Origin: a virus
IMG/VR virus record: IMGVR_UViG_3300045988_012220
Location: 32,001-96,000 of that record
DNA: 64,000 nt
Strand: one strand, 5' to 3'
Below are positions 1 through 60,731 of the stretch, piece by piece. The notes under the pieces are model-generated. The model was not told the origin of the DNA. It was given only the letters and a program-made list of their open reading frames with translations, and did not search any database. The stretch's first letter is position 1, and each line of letters opens with the position of its first letter. The position numbers and the translations under genes were made by a program.

Positions 1-633
1 GTGTTGTAGAAAACAAGATAGCTAATATTAAGCCTGCTACTAAAGAAGAGCTTGGTGCAGTAAAGGTTGGTGATGGTCTTAATGTTACTGATGGTACTAT
101 AAGTGTTGATACTACTGCTATAGGTGCTGGCAACTATGTTCCTTATGAAGCTTTTTCAAACAACACTTACTATTTACAGAATGGCATTGGTTTTGGCTAC
201 TAGAGGGCAGAATGTACATCCATAACTAATAGAGAGATATTTGTCAGAAGTAGTACTAAAAATCATATAAAAATTAATGGTAACTATCTGCTTTTTTCGA
301 ATGATGATGGCTCCACAATGAGTTTTAATAGCCAACGTGGTGAAATTGAAATAAACCGTAGTACTTCTAATGGAATCGAAAGTGCACTTAATATAAGCAA
401 ATCTGGTATATATATGTATGGTGTCGGAAAGAACCGTGTATTAACTGCCGATGCTAAAACTATAGATATAACCCAATATGCATTGAAGTCAGAACTCCCT
501 ACTGTTCCTACAAAGATTAGTCAGCTCTAGAATGATAGCGAGTTTATTGCTAAGTCAGTGTATGATGAAAAGATTGCAGCACTTGAAGCTCGTATTGCGG
601 CACTTGAAGCTAAACATGCAGAAGCTGTTTAAT
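1..633 (+). CDS. tail fibre protein, C-terminal part (5' end lies outside the window)
   Basis: Frame 3 is open from the window edge to TAA 631-633 if TAG 201-203 and 528-530 are sense. Contains the fibre-type repeat KEELGAVKVGDGLNVTDGTISVD and a C-terminal AALEARIAALEAK coiled coil. Confidence 0.7.
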
Positions 634-645
634 AAAATAAAAACT

Positions 646-669
646 AACGTTAAAAAAGATTTTAACGTT
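646..669 (+). terminator. hairpin after the fibre gene (AACGTTAAAA / TTTTAACGTT, loop AAGA)
   Basis: Perfect 10-bp inverted repeat starting 13 nt after the TAA stop. The downstream T tract is only short. Confidence 0.45.
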
Positions 670-1697: not shown

Positions 1698-1718
1698 TTA
1701 AGTTTTAAATTATATGTG

Positions 1719-6088: not shown

Positions 6089-8152
6089 ATGATAGACTTT
6101 AATTAGAAGCTCCATGATACTGATAAATTCAGATAGGCGGCTATCTTCTTTCAGCAACATGGATGTTATACCTTAGCTCCTAGAGGTACTACTGATTATA
6201 ATAAATATTGGGAGCAAGAGACAGATAGATGCCTTAACGGTTATACAGCTCCAGATGGAGAGGGTATAACTGGATACAACTACTTCTATCTAAATTATAG
6301 TCCAATCATGCGACTTAAGGAAGAAGAGTATACTGATAGAGAGGGTAACCTTAGAAAGAGAAGATAGCGTATACTTGAATTCCCTAGTTTTTGGGACTAT
6401 GATTACTATTATTTTTGCGCTATAGAACAAGCAGAGTTAGAAGGTAAACATATGGCTGTGCTTAAGTGTAGACAGAGAGGATACTCATTTAAGGGAGGAT
6501 CGATGCTAGTTAGAAACTATATGCTTATACCAGGCTCGAAGAACTTTGCTATAGCATCAGAGTAGAAATTCCTTATAGGTGATGGTTTGTTAACTAAAGC
6601 CTGGCAAATAATGGACTTCCTTGATAAACATACAGCGTGGGCTAAACAAAGACTTGTGTCTACACGTATGGAAAGAACATCAGGTTATAAGATTACCGAT
6701 GAGTTCGGTAAGTAGACTGAGCAAGGATACTTATCTAGCATAACAGGTATAACACTTAAGAACGACCCAGAGCGTGTGCGTGGTACTCGTGCTAAACTTG
6801 TACTATGGGAGGAGGGAGGTAAATTCCCTAGTCTTCTTGATGCATGGCGTATAGAACAACCTTCAGTAGAAACCGACGATGGTAAAGCGTTCGGATTGAT
6901 GATAGTTTTTGGAACTGGAGGTACCGAGGGATCGTCTTTCGAAGGATTGAAAGAATTGTTTTATAAACCTAAATCTTACAATGTTCTCAGCTTTCCTAAT
7001 ATATGGGATGAAGGTAGAGAGAGTACAGAATGCGGATTCTTTGTTCCAGCTTATTCAAACCTAGAATCATTCGATGATGATGGTAATTAGGTATATATGG
7101 ACAAGGATGGTAATAGCTACAAAGAGAAAGCTATAGAGAACCTTATAGATCAGAGGAATAAAGTAAAGGACGGTGGTGCTAGCTAGCAATCTATAGACCG
7201 TTTTATATCAGAGCGCCCTATAAAGCCAGCAGAGGCTGTATTGGAGCTTGGTAAGAACATATTCCCTAGAAAGTTATTGATGGACCAGCTAACAAGAATA
7301 AGGACCAATAAGAAGCTTCAAAGCATGAAGCATATAGTTGATCTAGAATGGGATGGGAATGGTCAGGTAAAGGCTACAGAAAAGCCTAGTGGGGATATAA
7401 CTAACTATCCTCTTAAGAAGGGCGATAAGCCTCATGGATCTGTAGTTATATGGGAGTACCCAGTAAAGGATCCGCCGCATGGTTTATATATAGGAGGATG
7501 TGACCCATATGACCACGATGATAGCTTCACAAACTCACTTGGTTCTACATTCATATTTAAGCGTGTGAGAGCTGGTGAAGCTTGGACAGATGTAATAGTA
7601 GCAGAATATTCTGGAAGACCAGATACAGCAGAAGAGTACTATGAGAATGTACGCAAGCTACTTACGTTCTACAATGCTAGATTATTATTTGAGAATGAAA
7701 GAAAAGGAATCTACCCTTACTTTACGAATAAACACTGCGATTACCTCCTGGCTGATTAGCCAGATAAAATCATATCTGAAGTCTTTAAAGACAGTAAAGT
7801 ACAAAGAAGAAAAGGATGTCACATGACCAAACAGATTAGGGCATATGGCGAAGGATTGATATTAGAGTGGCTATTAGATGAATTTGAAGAAGGTCACCCT
7901 AATGTAGAAAGAGTATACAGCGAACCTCTAATAGAAGAGCTTATAGAAAACGATGGTGTACGAAACGTAGACCGTGTTATAGCTTTATGTATGGTAATGA
8001 TATACAGAGAGGAGCTCTATTAGGTAAAGGTGTCGTCTGCAAAAGAACAAAACAAATAGGTTGAACTCTTCGAGATGCCGTTATTTAGCAAACAATGGTT
8101 TGAAGAAGATAGCAGCACAAGTGAAGACGGTATGCCGATATTCACATTTTAA
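6089..8152 (+). CDS. terL: terminase large subunit (687 aa)
   Basis: ATG 6089 is in frame with track ORFs 6776-7090, 7241-7759 and 7823-8023. Contains ATPase-like KCRQRGYSFKGG and KLVLWEEGG motifs plus a nuclease-region FGTGG. Stop is TAA 8150-8152. Confidence 0.9.
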
Positions 8153-8155: not shown

Positions 8156-10639
8156 ATGGAAGATAACTTATACAATTCAGCTTTCCCCAGACAAAAGCTC
8201 CCTCTTTCAAAGAAAGGAAAGAAGTGGCAAGAAGACTGCGTTAACTATATTATAGGTGAAGGTAACGTAACGTCTGGAGGAAATAGTACATCATATTACG
8301 GAGAGCTGTAGACCTATTATAACTTATATAACAGCATCTTCGACGAGAAGGATTTTAAATCAATTACAAACCCATTCAAGGTCGAGGATGGTTTTCCTGC
8401 TACTCCTCACGACTTTAATATCATTAGACCTAAGGTAGATTTGCTTATAGGTGAGGAGACAAAGAGACCTCTTAATTTCAGAGTCATCAGAACTTCATAG
8501 GAGGCTACATCAGAAATGCAGGAGAAAGAGAAGTAGATGATTCTACAATACATAGAAGCAGCTATCACAGCCAGAATGAGTCCAGAAGAGGCCCAATAGT
8601 TTCAGGAGTAGCTACAGTCTGGAGAGGTTATGCCACCAGAGTAGATAGCTAAGTATATGGACAAAGACTATAAAGATATTGTAGAGAATACAGCGTATCA
8701 TACGCTTACATATCTGAGAGAGAAACTTGATCTTGACAATGAGTTTATCAAAGGCTGGAAAGATGGATTGATCTCAGGTAGAGAAATTTATTATGTTGGC
8801 GTACTTAATGCAGAGCCATATGTTGAAAGAGTTAATCCTATATACTTCTCTTATGACAAGAGCCCAGACTTGGAGTTTGTTGAGGATGGCTCATGGTGCT
8901 GTAGAAAGATGCGTATGCCTATTACTGAAGTATACGATAGATACTACGATAAGCTTGAAGAGAAAGATCTTGACAAGCTTGAGGAAATGATTGGTTCTAC
9001 TCCTGGTAGAAATCTTGGAGATAGAAGCCCTGTTGATATGGGTATACAATTACGCATATACGATAACCCTATATTCGAAGGAGCCGGTAAGTCCCTTGTA
9101 AACGTATGGCATTGTTGCTGGAAGTCTTTCAAGAAGATCTTCTACGTAACTACTACAGACGATGCAGGATAGCCTCAGATTAACATAGTTGATGAAACGT
9201 ATCAGCCTGTTGGTAATGAGATTAGTGTAGAACCAGATTGGATTGTAGAGGTATGGGAAGGATATAGAGCTGGTAGTGACTTGTACTTTGGTATACAGCC
9301 TATTGAATACCAGCACGTAAGTATTGATAACCCTAATAGCTAGAAGCTTCCTTATTGTGGAGCTATTTATAGTAACACAAATAGTAAGCCTAGATCATTG
9401 GTTAGTATTCTTAAGCCATTACAGTACATGTACATTGTATTGTGGTATAGACTTGAGTTAGCTATTGCTAGAGACAAGGGCAAGGTTGTTAATATGGATA
9501 TTACATAGATTCCTAAGTCTATGAATATTAGCCCTGCTAAGTGGATGCATTACTTGTCTAGCGTTGGCGTTAACTTCATTAACCCATACGAAGAAGGCTG
9601 GAATATCCCAGGAAGAGAAGGTGGTAAGCCTGCATAGTTCAATCAGATAACAGCTTTGGATCTTACAATGTCTAACGTCATAGCTGAGTATATACAGCTT
9701 ATGGACAAGATAGAGGAACTTGCTGGTACAATCTCTGGTATCACAGCACAGCGTGAAGGAGCTGTAAGTTCATCAGAAATGGTAGGCAATGTAGAGAGAT
9801 CAGTTGTACAGAGCTCCCATATTACAGAGCCATTATTCTGGGTTCACAACCAGTGTAAGCGAAGAGTACTTAACATGCTCCTTAATACAGCTAAGGGTGC
9901 TTGGGAAGAGACTGGCAAAAAGAAGCTCCAGTACATCTTTGACAATGGAGAAAGAGCATTCTTGGACATTACTCCTAAGTTCTACTATGAGGATATGGAT
10001 GTCTTTGTAAGTGATACATCTAAAGATCTTGAGAACATATAGAAGCTTCAGCAGCTTATACAGCCAGCTATGCAGAATGGTGCTAGCTTACTTGAAGCAG
10101 CAGAGATTCTTACAAACGATAACTTTAACATCATTAAGCAGAAGCTTAAGGATATGTAGACTAGACAGGAGCAGATGCAGCAACAGCAGCAAGAGGCAGA
10201 GGCTCAGCAGCAACAGCAGTTGCAGCAGATGCAGAATGAAGCTAAATAGCAGGAGCTTATGTTACAGGAAGCTCAGATGGATCTTCAGAGATATCAGATT
10301 GATCAAGATAATCAGACAAAGATAGCTGTAGCATAGATTAATGCTTATCGTGGAACTGAAGATATGGATCAAAACGATAATGGAGTACCCGACGTTGCAG
10401 AGCTTGGCAAACAGGCTCTTGAGCAGCAAAAGATTAATCAGGAGGCTTATAATAAGCGTTATGAAGCTAAGTAGAAGCGTGAGATAGAAGATTAGAAGAT
10501 CTAGCTTGAGAAGGATAAAATGAAGCATGAGACAGAGCTGTAGTCTCAAAAAGATAAAGCTGCGATGGAAAGGGAATAGCTTAAAGCTAGAACCGCCATC
10601 CGCAATAAAACGAATGCGGAAGCTGCTAGAGGTAAGTGA
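8156..10639 (+). CDS. portal protein (827 aa)
   Basis: ATG 8156 is in frame with ORFs 8657-9172 and 9656-10042. I counted about 19 in-frame TAG by hand. The C-terminus is a Gln-rich coiled coil. Stop is TGA 10637-10639. The gene sits directly after terL. Confidence 0.85.
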
Positions 10640-10641
10640 TT

Positions 10642-11664
10642 ATGAAGTTTGATAATAAGACATTTTAGCAGAAGTATGAGGCGTGGAAGAATGGCGCTGA
10701 TTACTGGAAGGATATTAGAGGAATAAACTTGGGTGGAGACGCCCAGGCTGAGGAACCTAGCCCAGAAGAGCAGTAGTAGATTGATTAGAATGTATAGTCT
10801 ATACTTAATGCTTATAATGAAGGTAAAGATGTTAATATAGCTGAAGATATTATTAAACCATTACCTTTTGATACTCCATTAAATGAAGAACATCCAATAC
10901 TGCACAAATACAAAGGAGGTAAAAATGATTCTATTAATACTTTTGTTAACAGAATGGGCCCTCTTGTAGGACAATAGTTAAATAGATACGGATATGGCGA
11001 TACTGCGTTTTACAATGTAATGCGTTAGCTTGCATATGAATCAAACTACGGAAGGTCAAGAGTCGCTAGACAATAGCATAATTATGGAGGAGTAGGATGG
11101 AACGGCAAGACTTACACTACATATAAGAGTGACGCAGATTTTGTTAAGGACTATGTGAGGCTTATGCATAATAGATACGGAGCTGCGCTTAGAGCCAAAT
11201 CTACATAGGATTATGCAAGAGCCCTCAAGCAGAAGGGATATTATACAGATTCTCTAGAGAATTATTCTAGAAACCTTCGAGGAATGGATAGTTTAGTAAA
11301 GGCGGCTCATTACCACAGGAATGCACATAAAGATGCTTACAATTATAATGTTAAGCTTGATGATCTTGTATAGGATTATGAAGACGCAAAGAATACTAGC
11401 CCTATAATTATTAATTCCCCTTCTACAAAGTAGCCTAGTACTGTCAGAGTAGATGTTCCAGCAACTTTACTTGGTCCTACTTAGGAAGAGATTAAGGCTT
11501 AGCAATAGCGCGATCTTGATAAGTATAAACAGTAGATGTATAATAATATAACATAGCCTTCACTTCCGAACATACTTGATCTACTTCCTTAGAATAACTT
11601 TGGTAAAGATTCTTATGGCTAGAAGTTCTGGTAGAGAAGAGGAAATAATCTTAAACTAATGTAA
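10642..11664 (+). CDS. virion protein with a glucosaminidase (FlgJ/PF01832-like) peptidoglycan hydrolase domain (340 aa)
   Basis: The segment LAYESNYGRSRVARQQHNYGGVGW...YARALKQKGYYTDSLENY resembles the glucosaminidase family signature. Includes tandem TAG-TAG at 10774-10779. Stop is TAA 11662-11664. Confidence 0.7.
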
Positions 11665-26572: not shown

Positions 26573-26834
26573 GAAAATTTAGTATACAACCGCATGTCTC
26601 GCGTTTTTAAGCGGTTAGGCTCTAACTTGGATATAGTATTTACAATAGGGCGAAATCTCCACAGGAGTACTAGGGTTTGTAGCCCAAACATTAGTTTATT
26701 CTGCTAGTATCTATGGAGTATCTATTTATATACAAGGCAAGTTTGGAGAAATGAGAACATATTTAAAAGAATATTTAACAAACAATGAAGCAGCTAATTC
26801 AAACAATAAAGAAGAACTACAAGCTGCTGCTTAA
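26544..26834 (+). CDS. candidate holin (96 aa, two predicted TM segments, charged C-terminus)
   Basis: Frame 3 is open from 26526 to TAA 26832-26834 if TAG 26580, 26616, 26634 and 26646 are sense. Hydrophobic YTTACLAFLSGQALTWIQYL and TGVLGFVAQTLVYSASIYGVSIYI are followed by a KE-rich tail. The only start candidate is GTG 26544. Confidence 0.4.
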
Positions 26835-47200: not shown

Positions 47201-50200
47201 ATCCTATGTACATGGCGATCTATTAGAAGTATAATGATCTATACAATTCTATATATACATTTAACGACGATGATTAGCTTGAAAAGATAGACTTCGATAA
47301 AGAGGCGTTTATGATACAGATATTTACAGCTATCAAGGGTCACGAGCATAACTTTATTATTGGTAGGTCTATACGCGATAAGAATGGAGGCGTAGAAGTT
47401 AAAATATCTGATGCAAACTTCGATAGAGACGCAAGAATGTACCCTAAGCTTTGGAATTCATTCTTATCTTCTGGCCAATCTGGCTTATTATAGAGATCAG
47501 TTGGGTAGAATGGACAATTACTTCTTTCTACAAAGTATAACACAAATAATACTTAGGTAGATATGCCTACAACTGTAGCAAGAAATGCATTTAGATTTAT
47601 ATCTCAATTTTTCTCTGATTTACAGTCGTAGATACTGAATGATTCTACTAGCGAATTTAAGATAAACGGAAGAATTAGAAGCGCAGCGTCTAATAGTGAT
47701 ATCGAAGTACTTAAGGATGATATATGTAAAGAATTTAATATGCTTGGCATAAACTTTACTAAAGAAATGCTCGACCATATGCTGTCTACAAAGTATAATG
47801 GTGTTGGTAGAGAGGCTCTTAAGAAATGGATTACATCAACAGGCGTGTCTAACATTAACAGTTTTATTGATGCCGTAGGTAAAGTTGTGCAAACTAATGG
47901 TTATACAACATAGAAGGCTATAGACTAGATATTTAAGACTGGTTTTGTTAGCGAATTAGGTAACTGGGCTGGAGCTTACATGAAGATTACTACAGATAAG
48001 ATGTCTAATGGTATGGATGGTACTAAGCTGTATAATGAGTCACAGAACAATAGCATTAGCAATACTACAGAGAATCTTAATAGCCACGATAAGAATAATA
48101 TGGTAGTAAGGACTATTTTGTAGTCTAGCTACAATATCATGAACAACAATGGTGTAAATATGGGTTCTATTGTAGCAAAGCAATTACAGAACGGAGAAGA
48201 TTTCAATATTAGTATTTATACTCCTATTGGCTTTAAGTCTGATAATCGCGGTGACAATGGCTCAAAATATAGTAATCTTGCAGAAGCCGAAGATTATATC
48301 AATAAGTTCGCAATGCTTTAGAACGGATACTGTATATTCCCAACACTTGCCGACAAAGGTACATATATGGTTCTTGGTGGTATAAATATCCCAGGAATGG
48401 AGTTTGGGCAGTCAGATAATGGTGTTTATACTGTATCTGGTGCTCCGAAGATGGTATTCTTAGATAGTACGCACTATTACTTACAGCCTAATCAATCTGT
48501 ATTAAACTAGTTTATTGACTATGCTTATACAGAGCGTGAAGCTATACTTGATTGTAGAGAACAACTTGGCTTACCTGTAGATAATCCTAAAGGTTTACCA
48601 GTACTTAATGATGAAGATAAGATAATGAATTATCACATCGGTAAGAAAGGGAAATAGCCTGGCGGTATTCAGTTTAAATCACTTACAACACTTAGAGTGT
48701 ATGAAGATGGATAGATTAAACGTTACGAAATAAGCAAGATGTCTCCTGATGAATAGCTTAAAACTCTTAATGAGCAATTCTTCGACAGATCTAGAGAAGA
48801 GCAAGAATAGATAATGTCATTAACTCTTTAGGAGCAATATGAGAACGAAGTAGATAAAGCTGTTAGTCTTGGCATTGTTTCAAAGGATGAAAAGCTTGGT
48901 TATCTTGGGCTTAATAACATTAACCTCAATCAGAGCCAAATAGACGCCGTAGAACGCACTTTGTACGCTCAGATGTATAAGGATCTCACAGATAAAGGAA
49001 TAACACCTAATACGCAAAATTTGCAGCGTACAGCACATAGTATGGCTATTACTGCTATATTACAAGATGCAACGAATAGAGCTATTATTTCATCTGAGGA
49101 AAGTTTGAGATTATATATCGGTAATCCTGGGTTCTTTAAGAATGTAGAAGATATTCAGAAACGTATTGGCGGTCTTGTATCTACTGGTGATGACAACGTT
49201 ACATCTTTGTCAAATTACGACGGATCAGATGGAGAGCTTTATAGATGTGCTGAAATATCAGATTATGAAGTAGCTTCAAATGCTGATATTATGAGCGAAC
49301 TTCAAGAGAAGATGCGCGATGGTGAGCTTAGAGAAATTTATGGAAACCGTTACGGATTTAAAGGTGTTGACGATTTAGATATCGGTGCAGTAAGAGCTAG
49401 ACTTGTAGATGACTTTGGTGAAGATGCTGTTAAGAAAATAGAAACAAGAGCTAATAACTTCTATGAAGCCTATACGTGCGGCATAAATGTAGCTGATGGT
49501 GCATCTTATATTACAGCTGATATGTGTAAAAGAATGCTTAGAGCTAGAGGTGCATTAACAAACGACGTAGCTAAGGCTATTAACATTCTAGAAAGCTCTA
49601 ATAAATACTCTTGGATGGACCAGAAAGATGCATATAAACTTATATATGATAAAGTAAATCTTGTAACAACCAAGTATACCGCTTATGGATTTAGGGACCA
49701 TACAACTAATGGGAAGAAGGTTTCTAACTTAGCTGTACCATACTACAATAAGTTTGCATTGTTCCCTATATTCGATTGTATAGCTACTGGTAAGCTTAAG
49801 AATGTGTATGATAAGATGAAGGAAAGTAAGGTTGATAATCTTCTTATGACGTCTGCCGTAAAGGTTGGTCTACAAGGTCATTCTGAGTTCGATGGTAATA
49901 CTATTAGCAAGCCGCTAAATGTTTATACACAGAGACTTTCTGCGCTCCGCAGGCAGCTTAATACAGACCCAGAGGAAGGTGATGTTGTAGCAGCTGGTAC
50001 ACAGATGATTAAGGTTTGCTTGTCTAGTTTGCGACTCGATAGAATGTATGGCGATATGACTGGAGAATAGCTTAGAGATAAGCTTATGGGCTCTATCAAT
50101 AAACTTTCTAAACTTGGTGTAGATAAGTTTAAAGACAGATTCTATTCTAATGGTATTATAGACCAAAAGAAGCTTAGCGAATATCTTATAGAACAACTTG

Positions 50201-53200
50201 GTACAAGAAATGCTAATAAGAATCTTATAGACGCTCTTACGTATAATCCATAGACATGCTCAATGAATGCGCCTATTGCGTCTACTGCTGATGCAAGTTG
50301 GATGGAGTCTATGCTTATATCTGCAGCTAATAAAGATATTATTGACATCATGACTCCTGGTAGCTCATTTATTCAGAGATCAGTCTTTGCTATAGAAGGT
50401 AAAAATGGCGAAGGTAATATATAGGGACAGGAGATCTATAATGGTAAGAGATTATAGATGATAAATAAAGAGGGCTCTATGGATGCAGTAATATCTATAG
50501 ATTACTTCCAGGATATTCTTCCGAAAAACTTGTCTTACAACGAGGCTAGACAATGGCTCTTGGATCATAATATAATTGGAGAAAGTGCTACATCTAATAC
50601 GATCGGTTATCGTATTCCTACACAGGCTCAGTCATCTATACATGCTTTACGTTTTGTAGATGTTGTACCTGCTGTCAAATCCACGGTAATACTTCCAACT
50701 GAGTTTACCAAGATCACTGGTTCGGATAAACTATATCAATGTTCAAACCAGTATAATATAAAAAACTCCTTTAATTGCTGGGAACTCCATATCAAGTGGA
50801 CAATCAGCAGCCAAGCCCATTATGGGAAGGTTCAACGACTATCGAAATCATAGTATAAGAGAAACACTTATACGAAGAAGAGAGTAGAGTACACGAAAGT
50901 GGAAATGGGGAGCTTTTAGTATATGGTAATAGTATACTAATTGAAGATATAGTCTGATCTCATTGGTAACAATGAGTTAACAAAAATGTTTGATATCGAC
51001 CATCTTTATTTAGCACGTTATAACGTTAATGAGAGTGGTGGTTATGAATTTGATCCAGAAAGTGCAGAAGGATTACAGAATAGTATTATCGAAAGCATTC
51101 TTACAGTACTTAAGGATAAAAAGTCACTTAACATCTTGTATAAGTCTATCGATAATGATACTGAGCTTGTAACAAGCATAGCTGATGAAATCCCAGAACA
51201 GGGTAATACGAAGAGTGTAGCATACAACTTTGGTACATTACATGAATAGGTTACTCGTAAAAATGACTACATTACAGGTAAGACTGGTATCGGTCCATTT
51301 GCGTTGAATGTAACAAACCATATTCTTACAACATTATATGGCGTTAAATTTAAAGAGTCTAGCTTTACACAAATAACAGGTATTACTGGTTTTGATTAGA
51401 TTCTTGACGAAGATAATAATCAGATTTCATCTTGGTTATCAGCATTTATTAATGCCCACGTAGATATTGTGAAAGATCCATATATATCTAAGCTTAATGT
51501 AAACGGATTTACGTACAATATGATTAACTTGCTTGCTAGAAATGGCAAGGGTAAACAAGGTCTTTATTTCTTGTGTTAGCCTATAATTAGAGAGATGGCT
51601 AAAGCTGATATAGATACTAAGTCTCAGTTTACTAGAGATCCTAAGGTATTTAGATCTGCTTTCGAAATGAGGGATAAGAGATTAGCTGAAATATTCCCTA
51701 GCGTTACCGGTAAGACAATAGACGATTAGTATATTAAAGATGCTACAGAACTAAATAAATCTAAAGGCGAACCTGCTAGAAGGGCTGAGATAGTGAACTC
51801 TGTACTCAACAATATGGATATGCTTTAGAAGATAGCTAAGAATCCGGATTTAGTCTATGCTTAGACAGAAGAGGGAGAAAAAGCTAGAGCTTTCTAGGTT
51901 AATTGCTACATAGCATGGAAGTGCCTTGAAAAGTATTCTAATGCATTAAATAGTTTGGTACAGTACACTAAGATTGACACTCGTAAACAGGGTAAGAATT
52001 TCCTTGAAATGCAAGCTTATCTTAGAGGTTATGAGAATCTTACAAACCCAGAAACTGATTAGCTGTTTGATATGGATTCTATCAACAATCTTATACATGG
52101 TACTTGGATTGAGCAGAAAACAAGAGACGCTATTCAAGAACCCATGAGAGTTATGGCTGGACAATCATTCTAGGGTACACCTTAGTTTATGGAGTAGCTT
52201 ATCAATTTATCCGACGACTTTAAGTATAAAACAAACGACAGAGAGTCTGATTTACTTAGAAATGCTAAGACTATGAAGAAAATATCATAGGCTGCTAGTA
52301 GTTAGATTAAGGCTAGATATGCTGTTAGATTAGCTAAATCTTTAGGTATTGATATTAAAGGTTTGTTCGACGGGAATGCTACAATATTTGACAGACTTAA
52401 TTCTATATAGGCTTGCATACAGAGAGATGCATATGGTTTAGGTAGATTAAAGGATAATTATCTATTATCGCATCTCGCTCCATATATTTAGGATTAGGAT
52501 GTTTTCGTAAATGGAAAACTTACCAATAAGCCTAAATTTATAAGTGTTATTAATAGTATGGATGAAAGTAAAATGTCTGCTGATATGTTTATAGAGTCTT
52601 GGGAAGAACTTCTCAATGACCAATAGGCTAATGTAAGAAGATTTGCAAATGATCTTATATTGTATGCAATGCTTACATCTGGTGACACAAAAGGCTTTAA
52701 TAAAATAGCCAAATACATTCCTATGAGTTGGCTTGAAGTTAGACACGATGAGAGCACCGTACCATTCTCTGATTATATTAGGGAACAACTTGAGGCTCCG
52801 GAAATTGATCACGATCTTATAGCTTAGAACAACTATATGGATAGCGATTTGGTGAGCAGGGCTACATTCAAAGATTACTATTATGCTTTCAATGCTTAGT
52901 ACTCTCCTGCTGTAATAATTAGTAAGGATTCTCACGAACACGACGCTTTGTATATATCAGTACGAAATGATGGAGCGGTATATAGTGATCCAACGTCGTA
53001 CACATTGTATAAAAAGGTTGGAGAAGCTATGATTAATGGATCCAAACGTGCTGTATATGCGTTATTACCTAAGAGGGGATGGTCCGATAGAGATGGTCTT
53101 AATATATACGAAGCAGGTGATATTAATCTTAGTGTAAATGGCATTCCTATGAGTCAAGAAGTCATTGAAAGTCAGCTTGATAAACTTATGACTTACTTGA

Positions 53201-54039
53201 GCCAGATGAAGCCAAATATTACTGACGAGTAGCGCAATAACTGGATGTCGTGGTTTAATTAGATGTATTACAATGCTAATTCAGAATATCCTACAATATC
53301 ACAAGCTGTAGAGCAGCAAAGCACACAAAGTGTTAGTAATATTAATCTTGATGGCAAAGGCCCTTCTGGATAGACTGTGTACATAAGCAAATAGTTATTC
53401 TATAAAGATTAGCCTCAACAACACCCAAATGTACAGTACGTGTTCACAGATAATGCTTAGTCTTATGCTAAGGCGCAAGGTTTACCTATGCAAGGTTTTG
53501 CTAATTATAACCCAGTATTAAATGTAAGTTCTGGCGCCACTGGTACAAATCAAGCTTGCATTAGAACTGGCAGCGACGGAAAGATTACACCTAACGCGTT
53601 TGGTCTTGTAGTAAAAGTTAATCAGCAAGATGCTTCTGGCAGATGGCTTGCTAAAGATGGTTGTTTCTAGGATAATCAAGGCGACATAATGGCGTTTAAG
53701 TCGTGGGTTAACCATATGCTTGCAAGAATAGATAGAAATAAGCCAATAGTATTCCCATCATAGATAGCTCTTGGTAAAGCAGCTTTGCCTAGAGAGGCTG
53801 CAGAATGGCTTAGTTTACAATTGCTGTCAAGATTTAACATAAAATCAACAGTTTAGGAAAACACTAAAACTGGTTATACTGGCTATGGATTGTCTATAGA
53901 AGGCGTTGTGGATGATAATTATGCTAACACACTAATTAAAGAAGAGTAGTAGAAGTAGGCTTTAGCATAGATTAATCTTACTAAGGAAGATATAGAAGAA
54001 GCTGAAAGAATTAGAAAACATTGCAAAGGAGGTAAATAA
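38284..54039 (+). CDS. giant multidomain protein containing a virion-type RNA polymerase (5164 aa after intron removal)
   Basis: 18 track ORFs from 39220 to 53488 all lie in frame 1. Hand translation is open from ATG 38284 to TAA 54037-54039 apart from TAG codons and the intron. HEGFH zincin motif at 46129-46143. Beta-prime-like GYRIPTQAQSS...ALRF...ITGSD|FDIDHLY. Confidence 0.8.
50728..50988 (+). ncRNA. group I self-splicing intron (ORF-less) inside the RNAP DFDID motif
   Basis: Carries GGTTCAACGACTATC (R) and GAAGATATAGTCTGATCTCAT (S/P9, a 21-nt block identical to the capsid intron). P9 hairpin CTCATTG-GTAA-CAATGAG. The 5' exon ends in T and the intron ends in G. An in-frame TAA lies inside the insert. 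Removal restores the frame and the motif. Confidence 0.85.
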
Positions 54040-57000
54040 TGAAAGAAATATGTCCTAATTTACATAATAAACAAGTAGCCAAAGAGTTTGGTGAATTAAA
54101 AGATTTGTTCGGTGAGGATACTGCGTATTTACTCTGGAGCAAAAATAATGGATATAGTATAGATAAGGCACCAAATGGCGCCGACTCTATATTATTTGGA
54201 GAGTTGCTGAACGTTACCAATGGAGATAGAATATAGGCTCTTATATTAAAAGCCAAAGTTTATTCAAACGAATTCCTTAACTGGTTTGGTGACTGGACAT
54301 CTGAAGATAAAGAAAACGTATCTAAAGTTGTAGATAAGAATGGAGAGCCGTAGGTTACATATCACACAGTAAGCCCCGACCACTATTCTAATTTTAAGAA
54401 GTTTGACACAAATATCGAGGGGTTTAAAACAGCTATATATCATACAGATAGTATAGAGATGTCTATATCATATAATAAATATAAAGCAGAGAATTACGAA
54501 GAAATCAAAGACTATGATATAAGTACATATAATACATATGTAGAAACAGCCAACAAGGAAATATTTGAAGCATTAAACGATATTAATAAAGATGATTTTT
54601 TAGACGAACGTAATTATGATTGGTTTCTAAAAAAGAAAGAAGAATTTTTATACTATATCAAAAACAAAGAACTAGGTAAAGCTGACGATATTCTTAAATC
54701 TTTTCGTGGTTTGCTAAAACAAAATAAAGAAACATTTGTTCTTATTGGCGACCCATTTAGTGACAAAGAACCTGATTTTGATACTTTTTATCAAACGAAG
54801 CTAGATGAATTAGAGCGGAGTTTTTATACTTTATATGATGCTGAGAAGAATTATAATCCTTATTATATAGAAAGAAAACTACAAACCCAAACATTCGATT
54901 ATACTAAAATTGATTTTCTTAATATAAAGAATCCAAAAATAATTGATGCTAAAGGAAATAATTGGAACCACATTCCTGTTGGAAATAACAAGATTTTATC
55001 AACTAGAGATTTAGAGAAGTCGTATATTACAACAAATTATTCTGATGCAGAAATAGCCGATTCTAGAGCAGAACTTTATATTAGATACAAAAATAAAGAT
55101 TTCTCTAAATTCAATCTATATGGTATTACTATTAGTATAAATAAAAACGGAGATGCTAATTTTTACACAAGAGACAATGTTATTACTATAAAAGGGTATT
55201 TGGACTTAGATACAAATCAGATAAAGTAGGAATATTAGAAAAACAACATATATTTTTATAATCAGGATTTTCATCGCGATGGCGTTATTATTAATAATGT
55301 TACTGATTACGGATCTCCAGTTGGGGAGTTATTACCACATACGGTATACGAATGCATTGATAATTCTCAAGTGAAATCCGCATTTAACAATGGACAGTTT
55401 GCTAATCCAGATGACATGTATGCATCTTCTCAAGGAGAATCCAATATGGGCGCATCCTCTAGATTATCTAATATTCCTAGTAAAGGGGATATATCTATAT
55501 TGTAGCAGTATTTAAAGTCTCATAAAAGCGGTGTATCTAGTACAGCTTTAAAGCTTGTAATGACTGCTGTAAATAGATACTTTAATGATAAATAGACTGG
55601 AGTTACATACGAAATAGTAGATAACCTTCCTGGCGGAGAAGCAGCACATTATGATAGAGTTAACAAGGTTATTCGTATAAATAAGAATGCAAACTTTAGA
55701 AATGAAAGCAAATCTACTGCACCTGAAGTATAGACTATTGTTCACGAAATGCTTCATGCTGTTACAGAGTATGCGATTAGTAACGATTCTAGGATAAGGA
55801 AATCATTTACAGACCTCTACTAGAAAACAAAGAAAGTTCTTGGGAAAGATGCGTAGGACTACGGTTTGAATGATGTATATGAATTTGTAGCAGAACTTAG
55901 CAATGCGCAATTTGTAGAAAAACTAAAGTCTATACAATATAATCGTAAACAAACGCTGTTTGAAAAGATTAAACAGACTATAAAGAAAATATATTCTTAG
56001 ATATTTACAAGCTATAAAGACTTTATTGGTTCAGATAATGTGTACGAAGCTGCTGTTAACGATTTGTTTACAGTTATGTCTCACAACGAATAGAAGGAAG
56101 ACAATATAACTGATAAAGAAGCTAAAGACAGATTAGCTTCAATACAAGCTTCTGAAGACAAGGTTAATCAGATACATCATAGAATAACTGAGCTTTTCCA
56201 AGGGTTGTATAAGGACTATAAAAAATAGCTTAATAAGGGTGCCAATAGACAGCGTAGAGAAGACTAGGTGTGGTCTACAATATAGGAACTTAAGTCACAG
56301 GAAAAGAAAGAGTCTTCAAGAATAGCTATACAATCTGCTTTAAAAACTATTGGTGTGTTCGCAAGAGATCCAATTAATAATACTATTTTGCAGGCTCGTA
56401 GAGATACTATTTTAGGCTTCTTGTAGGAATGCTAGAAGAATAATTTCGATAGCCTCACAGCTGAATAGATACACGATATGAAGTCTAATATTATAGACTT
56501 CTACAACGATCTTGTCAAAACATTGTCTGATAACTAGATGGATCTGGATGCTAGAGATCAAGCTGACGTCGATACGCTTAATGCCACTGTAAGACAGATT
56601 AATCAATTATGGAAAGATGCTGCACAAATTGTAGCAGACAAAATAGTCGATGAAAATGTAGATAAATACATCAATGAATCTGAAGAAGAGAAGAATAAGA
56701 TAAAGACTGTAGCTAAAGACTGGCTTCATAAGAATGATATGTATGGAGACGAATCTAAACTTACATTATTCTTTAATTACTCTAGATAGAACAGTCCTAT
56801 TATTCGCCAAGCGTTCTAGATGATATAGGATGCTGATCAGTAGACTAGAAAAGAGTCTCTACCGGTTATGTAGTAGATAGCAAAAGCTTTTGATAAAGCT
56901 AATTCCATCATAGATGATCTTACTCCAGGAAACTGGTAGACGATGTTGATGGAAAGGTATACAGACGGTCCTAAGAAAGGAGAGTTTACAGGCTTGTTTA

Positions 57001-60000
57001 GATCAGCTGTTAATAGAGGTTAGTTTAAACAAGACTAGGAAAATTTTAAAGAGAAGCTTAATAATGAATGGCAAGACAAATATGGTTATTTCTATTACAA
57101 AGATCCTATTACTGGAGAGACTTTAAGAAGTGATACAGAGTCATCAGTAGAAGAAGAGCAATGGATCGGAGATCAAGAACCAAACTATGTAACATATCAA
57201 AGAAGATACGAGGAATGGCTGTGTGATCATGCACATAGAAGATATTCTAAGACATACTTTATGGAGCGCCTTAGTAAACCTTACGACCCAAAGACTAGAA
57301 CTGGTCACGGTCTGTCTCCAAGAACGCTTTCTAGACAGCAATATATACAAGATCAACTTAACTATTTATTATAGAAATGTTCAGATAAGCAGACTGGTTT
57401 ATCTTACCCAGAAAAGCTTAATCCGCACGATTATCAGAAACTGTAGATGTGGAAGGATGCTTTACAAGATTTGGGTAATCCATTTGATCAAGAAGGCAAC
57501 CTCAAAGAAGGCGATGAGTTACAAACAGCCCTTGAGATACAGTCTTGGAATAACTGGTTAGCTAAACAAACAGACTATTCTACAGATTTTGAGGAGTTTG
57601 ATAAAGAGTATCAGAATATATTGAATTAGATTAAAGCAGGAGAAAAAACTGCATAGGACCTATATAAGTTTATTGATGCTAATTCAGAATATGGTATAAA
57701 TCCAGAATACCTCGAATATATCTTTGATAAAAACAAATCCGCTAAAGAAAGTCTATAGAGAATGTTCTAGAACTCAATGAAGAAGCTTATTAAAACAAAG
57801 AATGGCTTTGTTAAAGATTTCAGTAATGTAATCTTCTCTGAACAGCCTGATGGTACGGTAAAAGTTCCAGATATGTGGTTCTATTCAAGATCTGCCGATA
57901 TCAAAAATAATGAAGAGAACAATGCTACTGGTATAGACCCAGAAGAATTTAGAGACGCTTTTGATATTAGAGAAGTTCCTTATACAGATCCTTCTGGAAT
58001 GCAATTAGCTAAAGATGGTGTAACAAAATTTGATCCACGTAATAATCCAAATGGCGTAGAGCCTATGTCGTGGTTTGAATATATACTTAAACAGTACACG
58101 GATGCAGCTCTTGATGGCAGAATGCCTAGATATGTATCGCTCGATGGTAAAATAGCGATAGACTTCTCTACACTTGGTGGCAATCGGTAGTCGGTAGAGA
58201 GATGGATAGCTGAGAATATTCTTATGTATACAAAAACATGGGAAGGTAAGGATGGTTCTATGAAATCTAAGCAAGTTCCACTTACAATATTCTCTCAGAT
58301 AATTCCTAGACACGCTACATTTGGAAATAACTAGCCTACATCTAGATATATTCCTAAAGGTCGTTTTACAACAAAGAAAGGATCTTTTGGCTCTTCTATA
58401 TACGACGACAAGTTCTACGATGGTGATAGAAGTGGTTTGTAGCCAGACTTTGATAAGTATGGAGATAAGGATTTTGTTAAGTTTATATAGAAGGGTGACG
58501 CTAGAGCCTAGTATTACAATCTTCTTGTACAAACTATGGAATAGCAATGGGATAAGCTTGGACTTGATCCATCGTATAATAGATTTAAACTTCCGCAGAT
58601 GGAGGGAACTTCTGATATGAAGAGATCTAGAGCTTTTGGTAGCCCTAAAAAGTTCATTAAGAATAAACTTCAAAACGCAACTGGTGCTACGTCTGATGAT
58701 ACAAATATGAGAGACGAAGGTGATTTTGTACAGCGTAATGGTAAGTGGGTTCTTAAGACTGCGCCAACACGCTTTATAAACGAAATGGAAGACCCTTCAA
58801 TGATTAGCTCAGATTTAGCTTACACTGTTGGCATGTTTGTAAATATGGCTAACAACTTTGTAAATAAGTCTAAAGTACAAGCTAAGCTTGAGACATTGGG
58901 ATATAACTTGTCTGATGAAACAAGAGATTCTGAACATCAAGGAACTGGTACTAGATAGCAAGAACGATATGCCAAGATGTTAAAACAATTGTTTTATGAG
59001 TCTAGAGAAACGAACGATAATCCTGGAGAAAAGCCTTCGAAAAAAGCTATCGCAGCAGCAAAACTTGTAAATAAGACTAGGGGTGCTTCAGCTTATCTTA
59101 TGCTTGCAGCTAACATACCTTCAATGTTTGTTGGTGTATGGGACTCTTTCACACAGATGCCAGCACAAGCTGCTAGAAATGATCAATTTGGTTTTAGAGA
59201 CCTTATAAAAGCATACCTTTATACAGGATTTGATCTTATGAAGGCTTTAGCTAATATTGGTAACCCTATAGCTAATTGTAAAGCTGTAGCTATGATGTAG
59301 AAAGATGGTCTCGTTAGAACAAATGATGAGACATTTAAAGACATTTATCGCAATAGAATTACAAAGGCTTTAAAGCAATCAGCTACAGGAGGTTATACAA
59401 TGGGCGATTATATGATGAACATGCTCGCACAAAGAGCTACATATAATGCCAAGAAATACTATCCAGGAAACACTGTTGTTAAAGAAGGTTTTTATACAAA
59501 GGCTGAGTTCGATAGATTAATGGTAAATAGTGGTCTTACATAGAAAGAGATTAATAGGGAATGGAAAGATAACCATGGAGAATCTATGTGGAATGCTTAC
59601 TATTTCGATCATGGTATAGCAAAGATTAAACCATCGTATACTAATGCCTAGATGTAGGACAGTAAGTTATCTGCTACCATACAGCAAACTATGGCATTGC
59701 TTAATGGTAACTCGCCAAAGAATGATCAATCAGCTGTTAGTAACAATGTCTTGCATAAATTCTTCTTCTTAATGCGTAACTTCTTTATACGTAGAGCAGA
59801 ACATTGGTTTGCAGGATATACTTCAGATAACGTTGTAAGAGAGATTGAATAGATAAAAGAAACTATGCAAAGAGGTGGTACAACAACCATTAAAACTAAA
59901 ACTGTTCGTAAACCTCTAACAAATGAGTAGAAAGCACAGAGATGCATGTATGACTATAGTACTGGTGAAGCTAATCCAGCTGTATTAGTAAATCTTATGA

Positions 60001-60731
60001 GAGGAGCGCATACTCAGCTTAAATGGTTTAACCAGCAGATGTTTAATCGTCAAGCCACTATTACAGATCCGGTTAAATTTAACAAAAATGAAGTAAAATC
60101 TCTTAGAGAGTTTTTGACATGGGGGCTTTGTCTAGCATTACTTTCTGTAGGATGGATGGCGTTTCATAGATATGTATAGGACGATACAAAAGATCTTAAA
60201 CCTAAGACTTATGAAGACTCTTTGCCTACTGTAAAGAACTTTATAGACTAGAAGGTTTACCTCAGACTTATAGACCAGTGTATGTTCAGAACTATTGACT
60301 CACAATTTCAGTTGTACAATGTTTATTAGTTTGTAGATATGGTTAAATCCGCAACAACTGTAACATCTGCTGTAGAGAAATTCACGGAAGTACCTACAGC
60401 TATTGCTGATGCAGCCGGATTAACAGGAAATAATCCAACCGACATTATTTCGTCTGACTCAAAGTATAAATACTTCCCACGTTGGCAAAGATCTTTAATG
60501 ACAGCCTCTGGAGTCCTTAACAATATACAAACATGGGGCTCCAGTAGAGGTAACGATAAAGTAGGTAGATGGTACTTTGACAACACAGTGACAGGTACCG
60601 TGTTTAAGATGGGTGGATATACATGGAAAGGTGGCGAAGAAAAGAAATCTAGTTCTGGTAATGTGTTTAAAATGGCTCCAATGTAGCCGATGCCAAAAAT
60701 GGCACCTATGGCACCAATGCCTGGATTTTAA
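54039..60731 (+). CDS. second giant virion/cargo protein with a zincin HExxH motif (2230 aa)
   Basis: AAGGAGG lies upstream of a TAATG start. Nine track ORFs (54039 to 60339) share frame 3. HEMLH at 55743-55757. Stop is TAA 60729-60731. Confidence 0.8.

What the first reader, a model, noticed from the sequence alone, without database searches (positions are those of the whole stretch)
1..60731. The whole + strand arm is decodable only if TAG is a sense codon, while the opposite arm fits the standard code
Every + strand gene in the track is broken only at TAG, and the fragments stay in one frame. Examples are 18 fragments in frame 1 between 39220 and 53488, nine in frame 3 between 54039 and 60339, and five between 29376 and 32859. 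Every reconstructed gene ends in TAA or TGA, often with TAATG or ATGA coupling to the next start. Tandem TAG-TAG pairs (10774-10779 and 53947-53952) argue for full reassignment rather than leaky readthrough. TAG sits inside Gln-rich runs (portal 10140-10560), which points to Gln. The five complete - strand ORFs (60813-63906) contain no TAG and stop at TAA or TGA. TAG-to-Gln recoding of late genes has been described for some crAss-like phages, so the phenomenon is known. The sharp arm-by-arm partition is directly visible here.
Basis: partly seen in the sequence, partly recalled or inferred. Interest (0 to 1): 0.8.

Follow-up and report, generated by a model that had tools for sequence, protein, structure and literature searches.

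The report
Amber-recoded late arm of a crAss-like phage
This is 64 kb of a gut crAss-like phage whose structural, lysis and virion-cargo genes read the stop codon TAG as glutamine while its replication genes avoid TAG; the effect is real and strong, but it is already published for this phage group.

Summary
With TAG as a sense codon, the + strand from 1 to 60731 resolves into about 35 abutting genes that cover 97.6% of the arm. They hold 420 in-frame TAGs in 19,750 codons and no in-frame TAA or TGA. Under the standard code the coverage is 45.7%. The five - strand ORFs hold no TAG.

TAG most likely encodes glutamine. Against a 92%-identical relative, TAG exchanges almost only with CAG and CAA. 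In seven standard-code Crassvirales homologues, the TAG columns of TerL and portal fit Gln best.

The window belongs to Crassvirales, family Suoliviridae, subfamily Oafivirinae, close to Burzaovirus faecalis cr124_1. The RefSeq record of cr124_1 already reads TAG through and carries a tRNA(CUA).

Late-gene TAG-to-Gln recoding, its block-wise layout, the TAG preference of lysis genes and mass-spectrometry proof are all published. The finding is therefore already known.

Three corrections apply:
- Two breaks are group I introns, not TAGs. One is in the capsid gene and one is in a gene of about 5,150 codons.
- Five + strand ORFs, including the capsid gene, contain no TAG.
- Within the window the - arm is only TAG-free. 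Evidence that TAG acts as a stop there comes from the relative.

One side lead: the suppressor tRNA locus of this lineage is non-canonical and linked to an HNH gene.

The parts
1..60731 (+). Late-gene arm in which TAG is a sense codon. It holds about 35 abutting genes with 420 in-frame TAGs (2.1% of codons, more than CAA 324 or CAG 348).
6089..8152 (+). Large terminase subunit, 687 aa, 10 in-frame TAGs.
   Evidence: RefSeq annotation of the 96.8%-identical cr124_1 gene. The alignment to 12 Crassvirales TerL proteins runs through all 10 TAGs.
8156..10639 (+). Portal protein, 827 aa, 19 in-frame TAGs, nine of them in the Gln/Glu-rich C-terminal tail.
10642..11664 (+). Endolysin-like (glucosaminidase) gene, the most TAG-rich in the window. 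TAG supplies 19 of its 27 Gln-type codons. It includes the in-frame TAGTAG at 10774-10779.
   Evidence: Pfam PF01832 on the identical gene; PHROG endolysin
13630..14826 (+). 398-aa acidic, Gln-rich head-module protein that is TAG-poor (3 of 36 Gln-type codons).
14845..15864 (+). Major capsid protein exon 1 (Crass_capsid profile positions 2-333). It has no TAG and no CAA, only CAG.
15865..16135 (+). Group I intron that splits the capsid gene. The Rfam match is 15855-16076; the 3' boundary comes from the alignment to the uninterrupted cr124_1 gene. It is absent from cr124_1.
16136..16648 (+). Major capsid protein exon 2 (profile positions 334-495), no TAG.
19745..20869 (+). 374-aa gene with no TAG and no CAA (14 CAG). 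It has the same codon bias as the capsid gene.
26785..27435 (+). Rz-like spanin candidate that is TAG-rich (10 of 14 Gln-type codons).
29376..34037 (+). 1,553-aa virion protein gene with 33 in-frame TAGs. Its cr124_1 counterpart is annotated 'virion structural protein'.
38284..50690 (+). Exon 1 of a giant gene of about 5,150 codons, with 94 in-frame TAGs. In relatives this gene carries AAA_30, UvrD_C_2, DUF7831 and NADAR domains.
50691..50976 (+). Group I intron inside the giant gene. The TAA at 50938-50940 lies within it. The cr124_1 gp01 coding sequence is continuous across this point.
50977..54039 (+). Exon 2 of the giant gene, with 32 in-frame TAGs, including the TAGTAG at 53947-53952.
54039..60731 (+). 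2,230-aa gene with 50 in-frame TAGs; the last gene of the + arm.
60732..60812 (.). Convergent intergenic spacer where the two arms meet. It holds the inverted repeat GGGGAGCA...TGTTCCCC followed by a T-rich tract. GC skew changes sign here.
   Evidence: direct reading. The consensus terminator scan did not call the repeat.
60813..63906 (-). Five complete - strand ORFs of the replication module, including an AAA ATPase and a DUF1064 protein. They hold 0 TAG in 1,034 codons and stop at TAA or TGA.
   Evidence: A 9.9 kb extension in a contig 99.99% identical to window 53592-64000 (L022) has no sense TAG in 15 genes.

Best explanation
The window is about two thirds of a 102 kb crAss-like phage genome (Crassvirales, Suoliviridae, Oafivirinae, close to Burzaovirus).

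On the + arm sit the genes for packaging, head, tail and lysis, together with the giant virion-cargo genes. These genes are written in genetic code 15, in which TAG is decoded as glutamine by a phage-encoded amber suppressor tRNA (anticodon CUA). That tRNA lies just upstream of the window, at the start of the same arm.

The converging - arm carries replication genes and avoids TAG, so the unmodified host ribosome can translate it.

Inferred sequence of events:
1. After infection, only TAG-free genes yield full-length protein.
2. Once the suppressor tRNA accumulates and is charged with Gln, presumably by the host GlnRS, the TAG-containing late genes become translatable.
3. Lysis genes are the most TAG-dense and are therefore the most tightly gated.
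4. The most abundantly needed virion proteins (capsid and 19745-20869) avoid TAG.

What is shown here: the recoding, its extent, Gln as the best-fitting residue, the partition, and the tRNA(CUA) in relatives. What is inferred: the timing, the charging enzyme, and how host RF1 is outcompeted.
For: - Coding frames hold 420 TAG but 0 TAA or TGA, while off-frames hold hundreds of each.
- Coverage rises from 45.7% to 97.6%.
- Only TAG-sense restores long ORFs.
- Codon-level alignment to cr124_1: window TAG pairs with TAG 76 times, CAG 19 and CAA 8, and with every other codon 3 times or fewer. In the reverse direction, cr124_1 TAG pairs with CAG 30 times and CAA 7 times.
- At the 29 TerL and portal TAG columns, seven standard-code homologues show Q 34, K 33, E 25 and no W or Y. 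Gln has the best log-likelihood, ahead of Glu by 26 and Lys by 33. For the nearer relatives the gap to the next residue is 103.
- cr124_1 has a tRNA(CUA) with a U1-A72 pair at 47896-47967, annotated tRNA-Gln.
- The recoded relatives cr4_1, cr114_1 and cr60_1 have a tRNA(CUA) near TerL. The standard-code relatives cr10_1 and cr1_1 do not, and they use TAG as the portal stop codon.
- 17 of 28 loci of this lineage have a canonical tRNA(CUA) next to the dUTPase gene.
- The - arm holds 0 TAG in 1,034 codons in the window, and no sense TAG in 3,850 codons of the L022 contig (99.99% identical over window 53592-64000).
- Seven - arm CDSs of cr124_1 carry their only in-frame TAG within 0-23 codons of the annotated end, which marks true TAG stops.
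- TAG share is high in the endolysin (19/27) and spanin (10/14) genes and zero in the capsid gene (0/16). Heterogeneity across genes has p = 1e-9. This matches the published lysis-gene preference.
- Mass spectrometry has shown TAG to Q in two other crAss-like phages.
Against: - No tRNA of any kind lies in the window or in the 3.9 kb upstream of it in the contig that is 100% identical to window 1-18152 (L003).
- At the syntenic site, that contig has an HNH gene and only the 3' half of the canonical suppressor tRNA.
- The candidate replacement tRNA seen in close relatives is not recognised by ARAGORN or by the Rfam tRNA model.
- Lys and Glu are nearly as frequent as Gln at TAG columns of distant homologues.
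- No release-factor gene or other anti-RF1 function was found. The near-complete decoding that a gene with 126 TAGs needs is therefore unexplained.
- There are no expression, proteomic or host data for this phage.
Confidence: 0.93

Rival explanations
1. TAG is still a stop codon and is only leakily read through (programmed readthrough). Most ribosomes terminate and a minority make longer products.
For: Host RF1 is presumably present. No RF-related gene was found in the window or in cr124_1. The most highly expressed genes avoid TAG, which suggests TAG decoding is not cost-free.
Against: The giant gene holds 126 in-frame TAGs. At 95% readthrough per codon the full-length yield would be about 0.2%, and even at 99% it would be only about 28% (arithmetic). 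TAG is the commonest Gln-type codon of the arm. Two tandem TAGs are in frame. TAG occurs throughout essential genes such as TerL and portal. TAG behaves as a synonymous Gln codon between relatives.
Confidence: 0.03
2. TAG is fully reassigned, but to another amino acid such as Glu, Lys, Trp, Tyr, Leu, Ser or pyrrolysine.
For: At TAG columns of distant standard-code homologues, K (33) and E (25) are almost as common as Q (34). ARAGORN labels every CUA tRNA 'Pyl' by convention.
Against: The log-likelihood favours Gln over Glu by 26 units and over Lys by 33. Between close relatives TAG swaps with CAG 49 times and CAA 15 times, but with AAG, GAG, TGG, TAT, TAC and TCG three times or fewer each and with TTG never. 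No W or Y appears at any TAG column. TAG sits inside poly-Gln runs. Published mass spectrometry shows Q in related phages.
Confidence: 0.03
3. The TAGs are not translated as such. They reflect a degraded or defective genome, an assembly or sequencing artefact, or UAG-to-CAG editing of the mRNA.
For: None specific. This is only the formal possibility that DNA-level stop codons are corrected or irrelevant.
Against: Independent assemblies from other samples are 100% (L003) and 99.99% (L022) identical. Thousands of near-identical TerL genes exist in public data. 76 of 128 aligned TAG positions are conserved in a genome 8% diverged. Only one of the three stop codons is affected, and only on one arm. 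A matching tRNA(CUA) is conserved in relatives.
Confidence: 0.01

Closest known systems
[quoted passage not shown] 2021, PMC7886860; Borges et al., bioRxiv 10.1101/2021.08.26.457843; Peters et al. 2022, PMC9523058; Mgcod, bioRxiv 10.1101/2022.06.29.495998)
   Same: TAG is read as Gln. Recoding is restricted to the block of late structural and lysis genes, while the replication genes stay compatible with the standard code. A suppressor tRNA(CUA) is present. [quoted passage not shown] Group I introns lie in conserved genes.
   Different: Nothing essential differs. In this particular lineage the canonical suppressor tRNA gene is replaced or disrupted by a cassette holding a non-canonical tRNA(CUA) and an HNH gene. 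I did not find that arrangement described in the passages I read.
Burzaovirus faecalis, uncultured phage cr124_1 (NC_055899.1)
   Same: About 92% nucleotide identity over the terminase-to-capsid region. Gene order is the same. TAG usage is the same, with 391 TAG in 19,967 + strand codons as annotated. The two arms have the same convergent and divergent layout.
   Different: cr124_1 has an uninterrupted capsid gene and giant gene, with no introns at these sites. It has a canonical tRNA(CUA) next to the dUTPase gene. Tail and cargo genes (window about 37-60 kb) are too diverged to align at the nucleotide level.
TGA-to-Trp (code 4) recoded phages (Agate and Jade clades, some Zeta crAss-like phages) and TAG-recoded Lak megaphages
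   Same: The logic is the same: a stop codon is reassigned in the late and lysis modules of a phage that infects a standard-code host, supported by a phage suppressor tRNA.
   Different: The codon and amino acid differ (code 4). Some of those phages also encode RF1 or RF2, or an aminoacyl-tRNA synthetase. None was found here.
Bacterial amber suppressor tRNA-Gln (E. coli supE type); from my own knowledge
   Same: It is a CUA-anticodon tRNA charged with Gln. The cr124_1 tRNA has the weak U1-A72 pair typical of tRNA-Gln.
   Different: supE gives partial suppression in a cell that still uses TAG as a stop. Here decoding must be nearly complete and is part of a programmed, phage-encoded switch.

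Membership tests
Phage genetic code 15 (TAG to Gln) recoding | Coding density rises markedly (published criterion: more than 5-10%) when TAG is treated as sense | tested here: met
   45.7% rises to 97.6% on the + arm. The longest ORF rises from 412 to 4,219 aa.
Phage genetic code 15 (TAG to Gln) recoding | In-frame TAGs inside conserved hallmark genes (TerL, portal, capsid), with homology continuing across them | tested here: met
   TerL has 10 TAGs and portal has 19, and both alignments run through all of them. The capsid gene itself has none.
Phage genetic code 15 (TAG to Gln) recoding | TAG positions correspond to Gln in homologues | tested here: met
   Gln has the best log-likelihood. TAG exchanges with CAG and CAA dominate between close relatives.
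Phage genetic code 15 (TAG to Gln) recoding | Phage-encoded suppressor tRNA with anticodon CUA | tested here: inconclusive
   None lies in the window or in the 3.9 kb upstream. A canonical one is present in cr124_1 and in 17 of 28 loci of the lineage. In the window's sub-lineage only a non-canonical cloverleaf with CUA is seen, which ARAGORN and Rfam do not call. The roughly 135 nt of the window's own genome that would hold it could not be fetched.
Phage genetic code 15 (TAG to Gln) recoding | Recoding confined to late, structural and lysis genes, with early and replication genes compatible with the standard code | tested here: met
   420 TAG on the + arm against 0 in the - arm ORFs. The - arm extension is TAG-free. 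Early or late timing is inferred from gene content and was not measured.
Phage genetic code 15 (TAG to Gln) recoding | Peptides with Gln at TAG positions | not testable with these tools
   Shown by LC-MS/MS for two other crAss-like phages, not for this one.
Crassvirales / Suoliviridae / Oafivirinae | crAss-type capsid, TerL and portal genes, and the genome layout of the order | tested here: met
   Pfam Crass_capsid at 459 and 211 bits on the two exons. TerL is 96.8% identical to cr124_1 and 80-83% identical to other Oafivirinae. Synteny with NC_055899.1 holds.
Burzaovirus faecalis (species) | Species-level nucleotide identity over the genome (about 95%; ICTV convention, from my own knowledge) | tested here: not met
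   Identity is 92% over 82% of a 9.9 kb query. Large parts of the arm do not align at the nucleotide level. The window is a related species, or possibly a related genus.

The most novel reading that the evidence does not exclude
In this abundant sub-lineage the amber suppressor may be a structurally non-canonical tRNA(CUA). It forms a perfect cloverleaf, but it lacks the D-loop GG and the T-loop T-Psi-C motif and has a U.U mismatch at positions 1 and 72. ARAGORN and the Rfam tRNA model both miss it. It travels with an HNH homing-endonuclease gene that has displaced the canonical allele and left that allele's 3' half behind. This would give a concrete explanation for recoded phages that appear to have no suppressor tRNA. 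In addition, TAG has both meanings within the - arm of the relatives: it is a stop in at least seven genes and Gln in one conserved 156-aa gene. That would make the code switch temporal and gene-specific rather than strand-specific.
Probability: 0.45. Interest if true: 0.5.

Novelty: already known. Interest (0 to 1): 0.25.

Why it matters
For annotation, the point is practical. Read with code 11, this arm breaks into hundreds of fragments and loses nearly all functional calls. Read with code 15, it gives a normal crAss-like late module.

Biologically, the window is a clean example of a virus that uses a genetic code different from its host's as a translational gate on late and lysis genes. That principle, its restriction to late genes, the TAG preference of lysis genes and the Gln identity have been published since 2021-2022, and the nearest RefSeq genome is already annotated accordingly.

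Two open questions remain:
- How is TAG decoded almost completely against host RF1? One gene needs 126 consecutive successful decodings.
- What is the functional suppressor in sub-lineages whose canonical tRNA(CUA) gene is disrupted?

Tried and rejected
1. The search for homologous proteins with TerL (TAG given as X) returned only near-identical proteins that had already been translated with Q at the TAG positions. That is not independent evidence. I replaced it with DNA-level comparison to annotated standard-code Crassvirales.

2. I tried several routes to the window genome's own suppressor locus:
   - L003 and L004 stop about 135 nt short of it.
   - Exact-pattern scans of IMG/VR and JGI found nothing.
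   - The dUTPase cluster representative led to a different arrangement, L007.

3. I tested the HNH-bearing segment at the tRNA locus as a group I intron. There was no Rfam match even at E <= 10 on 596 nt. The 'split tRNA with intron' reading is therefore weakened, and the stand-alone copy in L051 weakens it further.

4. I looked for covariation in the non-canonical tRNA. Only six nearly identical copies exist in IMG/VR, so no test was possible.

5. A tblastn search with the GGQ motif for a release-factor gene found none. Its sensitivity is limited to that conserved domain.

6. TGA or TAA reassignment was rejected.

7. The consensus terminator scan did not call the inverted repeat in the convergent spacer.
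Full report
**1. The observation**

The window has 36% G+C. Under the standard bacterial code the + strand has no ORF longer than 412 aa. Treating TAG as sense gives ORFs of up to 4,219 aa. Treating TGA or TAA as sense gives nothing longer than 422 and 457 aa.

The TAG-sense ORFs abut or overlap by a few bases and tile positions 1-60731. After correcting for two introns I count 35 genes and 19,750 codons.
- In the coding frame there are 420 TAG, 0 TAA and 0 TGA.
- In the two other frames there are 449 and 513 TAG, 497 and 1,363 TAA, and 221 and 882 TGA.

So TAG is not depleted in the coding frame, while the other two stop codons are excluded from it.

Coverage of the arm rises from 45.7% (all code-11 ORFs of at least 60 aa) to 97.6%. 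The longest TAA/TGA-free run in 50 shuffles of the arm is 205 codons. Of the code-11 fragments that lie in frame inside these genes, 56 of 65 end at TAG.

- Both TAGTAG pairs are in frame.
- The TAGs lie inside the Gln-rich tail of the portal protein.
- TAATG and ATGA overlaps link about nine gene pairs.
- The fragment counts match to within one.
- The five - strand ORFs at 60813-63906 hold no TAG in 1,034 codons and end in TAA or TGA. They hold 22 Gln codons, and TAG makes up 0.386 of Gln-type codons on the + arm. The chance of zero TAG is therefore 2e-5.

**2. What the sequence is**

Megablast places the window next to 'uncultured phage cr124_1' (NC_055899.1). This is Burzaovirus faecalis, in Crassvirales, Suoliviridae, Oafivirinae. 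Identity is 92% over the terminase-to-capsid region. TerL is 96.8% identical at the protein level.

An ENA contig of 102,161 bp (L003) is 100% identical to window 1-18152. A Logan contig (L022) is 99.99% identical to window 53592-64000. The sequence is therefore reproducible across samples.

Gene content:
- The + arm carries TerL, portal, an endolysin-like gene, the crAss capsid gene, tail genes, a spanin-like gene and giant virion-cargo genes.
- The - arm carries replication functions: an AAA ATPase and a DUF1064 protein in the window, then DnaB-type helicase and a RecA-like AAA_24 protein further on.

GC skew changes sign at the convergent junction near 60.7 kb.

**3. Which amino acid TAG encodes**

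I ran two independent tests.

(a) Codon-level alignment with cr124_1.
- Window TAG aligns to TAG 76 times, CAG 19 times and CAA 8 times, and to every other codon 3 times or fewer.
- cr124_1 TAG aligns to window CAG 30 times and CAA 7 times.
- The other single-step neighbours of TAG (AAG, GAG, TGG, TAT, TAC, TCG) are seen three times or fewer each, and TTG never.
- TAG therefore behaves as a synonymous Gln codon.

(b) Comparison with standard-code homologues. I fetched the TerL and portal genes of 12 Crassvirales and one related Flavobacterium phage. Seven of them have no in-frame TAG, and three of those use TAG as the portal stop codon.
- At the 29 window TAG columns these seven show Q 34, K 33, E 25, N 10 and gap 12, and never W or Y.
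- I scored each candidate residue with substitution frequencies taken from the same alignments. Gln is best, followed by Glu (-26 log-likelihood units) and Lys (-33).
- For the nearer, recoded relatives the gap to the next-best residue is 103 units. These observations are not phylogenetically independent, so the numbers rank the candidates and are not probabilities.
- No TAG column coincides with a protein end.

**4. The decoding agent**

The window holds no tRNA. cr124_1 has a tRNA with anticodon CUA at 47896-47967 on the + strand, just upstream of the dUTPase gene near the start of the + arm. The record annotates it as tRNA-Gln, and it has a U1-A72 pair.

Other recoded Suoliviridae (cr4_1, cr114_1, cr60_1) also carry a tRNA(CUA) close to TerL. 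The standard-code cr10_1 and cr1_1 do not. Among 28 IMG/VR loci of this lineage, 17 have the canonical tRNA(CUA) next to the dUTPase gene.

No release-factor GGQ domain is encoded in the window or in cr124_1.

**5. Full reassignment, not leakiness**

This is an inference. The giant gene has 126 in-frame TAGs. Full-length yield would be about 0.2% at 95% readthrough per codon, and only about 28% at 99%. Decoding must therefore be close to that of an ordinary sense codon. TAG is also the commonest Gln-type codon of the arm: 424 against 324 CAA and 348 CAG.

**6.

(i) Two interruptions are group I introns, not TAGs.
- Rfam matches 15855-16076 at 93 bits and 50691-50976 at 87 bits.
- The first splits the capsid gene exactly between Crass_capsid profile positions 333 and 334. 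It is absent from the 511-aa cr124_1 gene.
- The second splits a gene of about 5,150 codons. The cr124_1 gp01 coding sequence is continuous across that junction.
- The TAA codons at 15865 and 50938 are intronic.

(ii) TAG use varies strongly between genes (chi-square 108.6, 34 df, p = 1e-9).
- It is highest in the endolysin-like gene (19 of 27 Gln-type codons) and the Rz-like spanin candidate (10 of 14).
- It is zero in the capsid gene (0 of 16, all CAG) and in 19745-20869 (0 of 14, all CAG).
- It is low in 13630-14826 (3 of 36).
- It also suggests that the most abundantly needed virion proteins avoid the recoded codon.

(iii) In the window, and in the 9.9 kb - arm extension of the L022 contig, the - arm is simply TAG-free.
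- The extension has 15 genes and 3,850 codons. Its stops are 12 TAA and 3 TGA.
- Its single 'in-frame' TAG lies in a tRNA-Val that a gene call overlaps.
- These genes fit both codes, so nothing in the window itself shows TAG acting as a stop.
- That evidence comes from cr124_1. Its code-15 annotation leaves 14 in-frame TAGs in - strand CDSs. In seven CDSs they sit 0-23 codons from the annotated end, once as TAGTAG. That is the signature of true TAG stops that were read through by the annotation.

(iv) The partition is not perfectly strand-wise across the whole genome. The second gene of the - arm in cr124_1 (44749-45219, 156 aa) has six dispersed in-frame TAGs. Five of them are conserved in a related genome (L070), with TAG/CAG swaps at other positions. 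This lies outside the window.

**7. Mechanism**

Shown here: the recoding, its extent, Gln as the best-fitting residue, the partition between arms, and the presence of a tRNA(CUA) in relatives.

Inferred from published models:
- TAG-free genes are translated by the naive host.
- The suppressor tRNA is made and charged with Gln, presumably by host GlnRS. It is established for E. coli that CUA-anticodon tRNAs tend to be accepted by GlnRS (from my own knowledge).
- Late genes then become translatable, and the lysis genes are gated most tightly.

How RF1 is outcompeted is unknown.

**8. Side lead: the suppressor locus of this sub-lineage**

In L003, the contig identical to window 1-18152, the site that holds the tRNA in cr124_1 instead holds an HNH endonuclease ORF. 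It is followed by only the 3' half of the canonical tRNA, TAGTCTGGGTTCGAATCCTAGTGGGGTAA.

Relatives with an HNH about 90% identical (L008, L032-L036, L046, L048, L054, L070, L072) have a 74-nt sequence upstream of the HNH gene. Its minimum-free-energy fold is a perfect cloverleaf with anticodon CUA, at -24.5 kcal/mol. Its D-loop lacks GG, its T-loop is AUGGACA, and positions 1 and 72 are U.U. ARAGORN and the Rfam tRNA model do not call it.

There are two readings:
- (A) It is a complete non-canonical suppressor tRNA, followed by a free-standing HNH gene and the leftover 3' half of the displaced canonical allele.
- (B) It is a tRNA gene split in the variable loop, which would need splicing. Joining the halves in silico gives a tRNA that ARAGORN calls.

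Reading A is favoured on three grounds:
- The same 74-nt element stands alone in L051, a TAG-recoded genome, directly upstream of the dUTPase gene with no HNH and no remnant.
- No group I signature is present.
- Divergence from cr124_1 is confined to the part upstream of the HNH gene.

Reading B is not excluded. The remnant's acceptor bases stay able to pair with the 5' end in all variants.

Five further loci, of the L007 type with a different 300-aa HNH, show no recognisable tRNA(CUA) at all, although the downstream genes are recoded. Both Yutin et al. and Borges et al. noted that many recoded phages lack a detectable suppressor, and they guessed at non-canonical tRNAs. This locus may be a concrete case. 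It lies outside the window, and I could not retrieve the roughly 135 nt of the window's own genome that would settle it.

**9. Comparison with what is known, and verdict**

The published record already covers the phenomenon:
- Yutin et al. [quoted passage not shown] They also reported suppressor tRNAs and introns in these phages.
- Borges et al. (bioRxiv 10.1101/2021.08.26.457843) described the single alternatively coded structural and lysis unit in crAss-like phages, and the TAG preference of lysis genes.
- Mgcod (bioRxiv 10.1101/2022.06.29.495998) formalised the block-wise dual coding.
- Peters et al. 2022 (PMC9523058) showed TAG to Q by LC-MS/MS in two crAss-like phages, with no recoded peptides from the standard-code region.
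- The nearest RefSeq genome is annotated with TAG read through.

The finding is therefore a correct and well-observed instance of a known phenomenon. Its novelty is 'already known' and its interest is low to moderate. The residual interest lies in the non-canonical suppressor locus and in the unexplained efficiency of TAG decoding.

Noticed in passing
window 15855-16135: A group I intron (Rfam, 93 bits) splits the major capsid gene between Crass_capsid profile positions 333 and 334. The relative cr124_1 has an uninterrupted 511-aa gene.
   Followed up: yes
window 50691-50976: A group I intron (Rfam, 87 bits) lies inside a giant gene of about 5,150 codons (38284-54039). The cr124_1 gp01 coding sequence is continuous across the junction. 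The exact splice sites were not determined.
   Followed up: partly
L003 1-436 (same genome, about 3.5-3.9 kb upstream of window position 1); L008 2472-3045; L032-L036; L046-L072: The suppressor tRNA locus of this sub-lineage holds three elements in order: a 74-nt perfect cloverleaf with anticodon CUA but non-canonical D- and T-loops (missed by ARAGORN and Rfam), an HNH endonuclease ORF, and the orphan 3' half of the canonical tRNA(CUA). The cloverleaf stands alone in L051 (3899-3972). It is unresolved whether this is a complete non-canonical tRNA plus a homing cassette, or a split tRNA.
   Followed up: partly
L007 1398-2610; L049, L064, L065, L069, L071: A third arrangement occurs at the same locus. 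It has a different HNH ORF of about 300 aa and no recognisable tRNA(CUA), although the downstream genes hold in-frame TAGs. The suppressor of these genomes is unidentified.
   Followed up: no
L008 2007-2080; L007 1113-1186; L034 2784-2858; several of L047-L069: tRNA-like genes lie next to the tRNA-Met and tRNA(CUA) genes. Their anticodon loops are not 7 nt long; ARAGORN reports anticodons such as 'tgaa', 'taaa', 'ca' and 'aa'. Their function is unknown.
   Followed up: no
L001 (cr124_1) 44749-45219, - strand; L070 71-544, - strand: A conserved 156-aa gene on the otherwise TAG-avoiding - arm carries 6-7 in-frame TAGs. Five positions are conserved and others show TAG/CAG swaps. It has no PHROG match. 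The recoding is therefore not strictly strand-wise.
   Followed up: partly
L001 (cr124_1) - strand CDSs 30779-32335, 33318-33806, 36435-36932, 39969-40259, 41758-42009, 42415-43047, 43471-43644: The RefSeq code-15 annotation probably over-extends seven early genes past their true TAG stops. The in-frame TAGs lie 0-23 codons from the annotated end, one of them as TAGTAG.
   Followed up: partly
window 14845-16648, 19745-20869, 13630-14826: The capsid gene and two neighbouring head-module genes avoid both TAG and CAA and use CAG almost exclusively. This is a codon bias typical of highly expressed genes inside the recoded arm.
   Followed up: partly
L011 (Bohxovirus sp. 'endotrachealis', PV686213.1) 3001-7560: The GenBank annotation of this relative cuts TerL and portal into many short 'hypothetical proteins', evidently because code 11 was used. 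My rough frames also showed 5-6 non-TAG stops per gene. I did not check whether those are coordinate or indel effects.
   Followed up: no
L003 385-390; L032-L036 about 3385: The HNH ORF at the tRNA locus ends at TAG in some genomes and has CAG at the same codon in others. TAG is therefore probably read as Gln there too, and the ORF would run on into the tRNA remnant.
   Followed up: no
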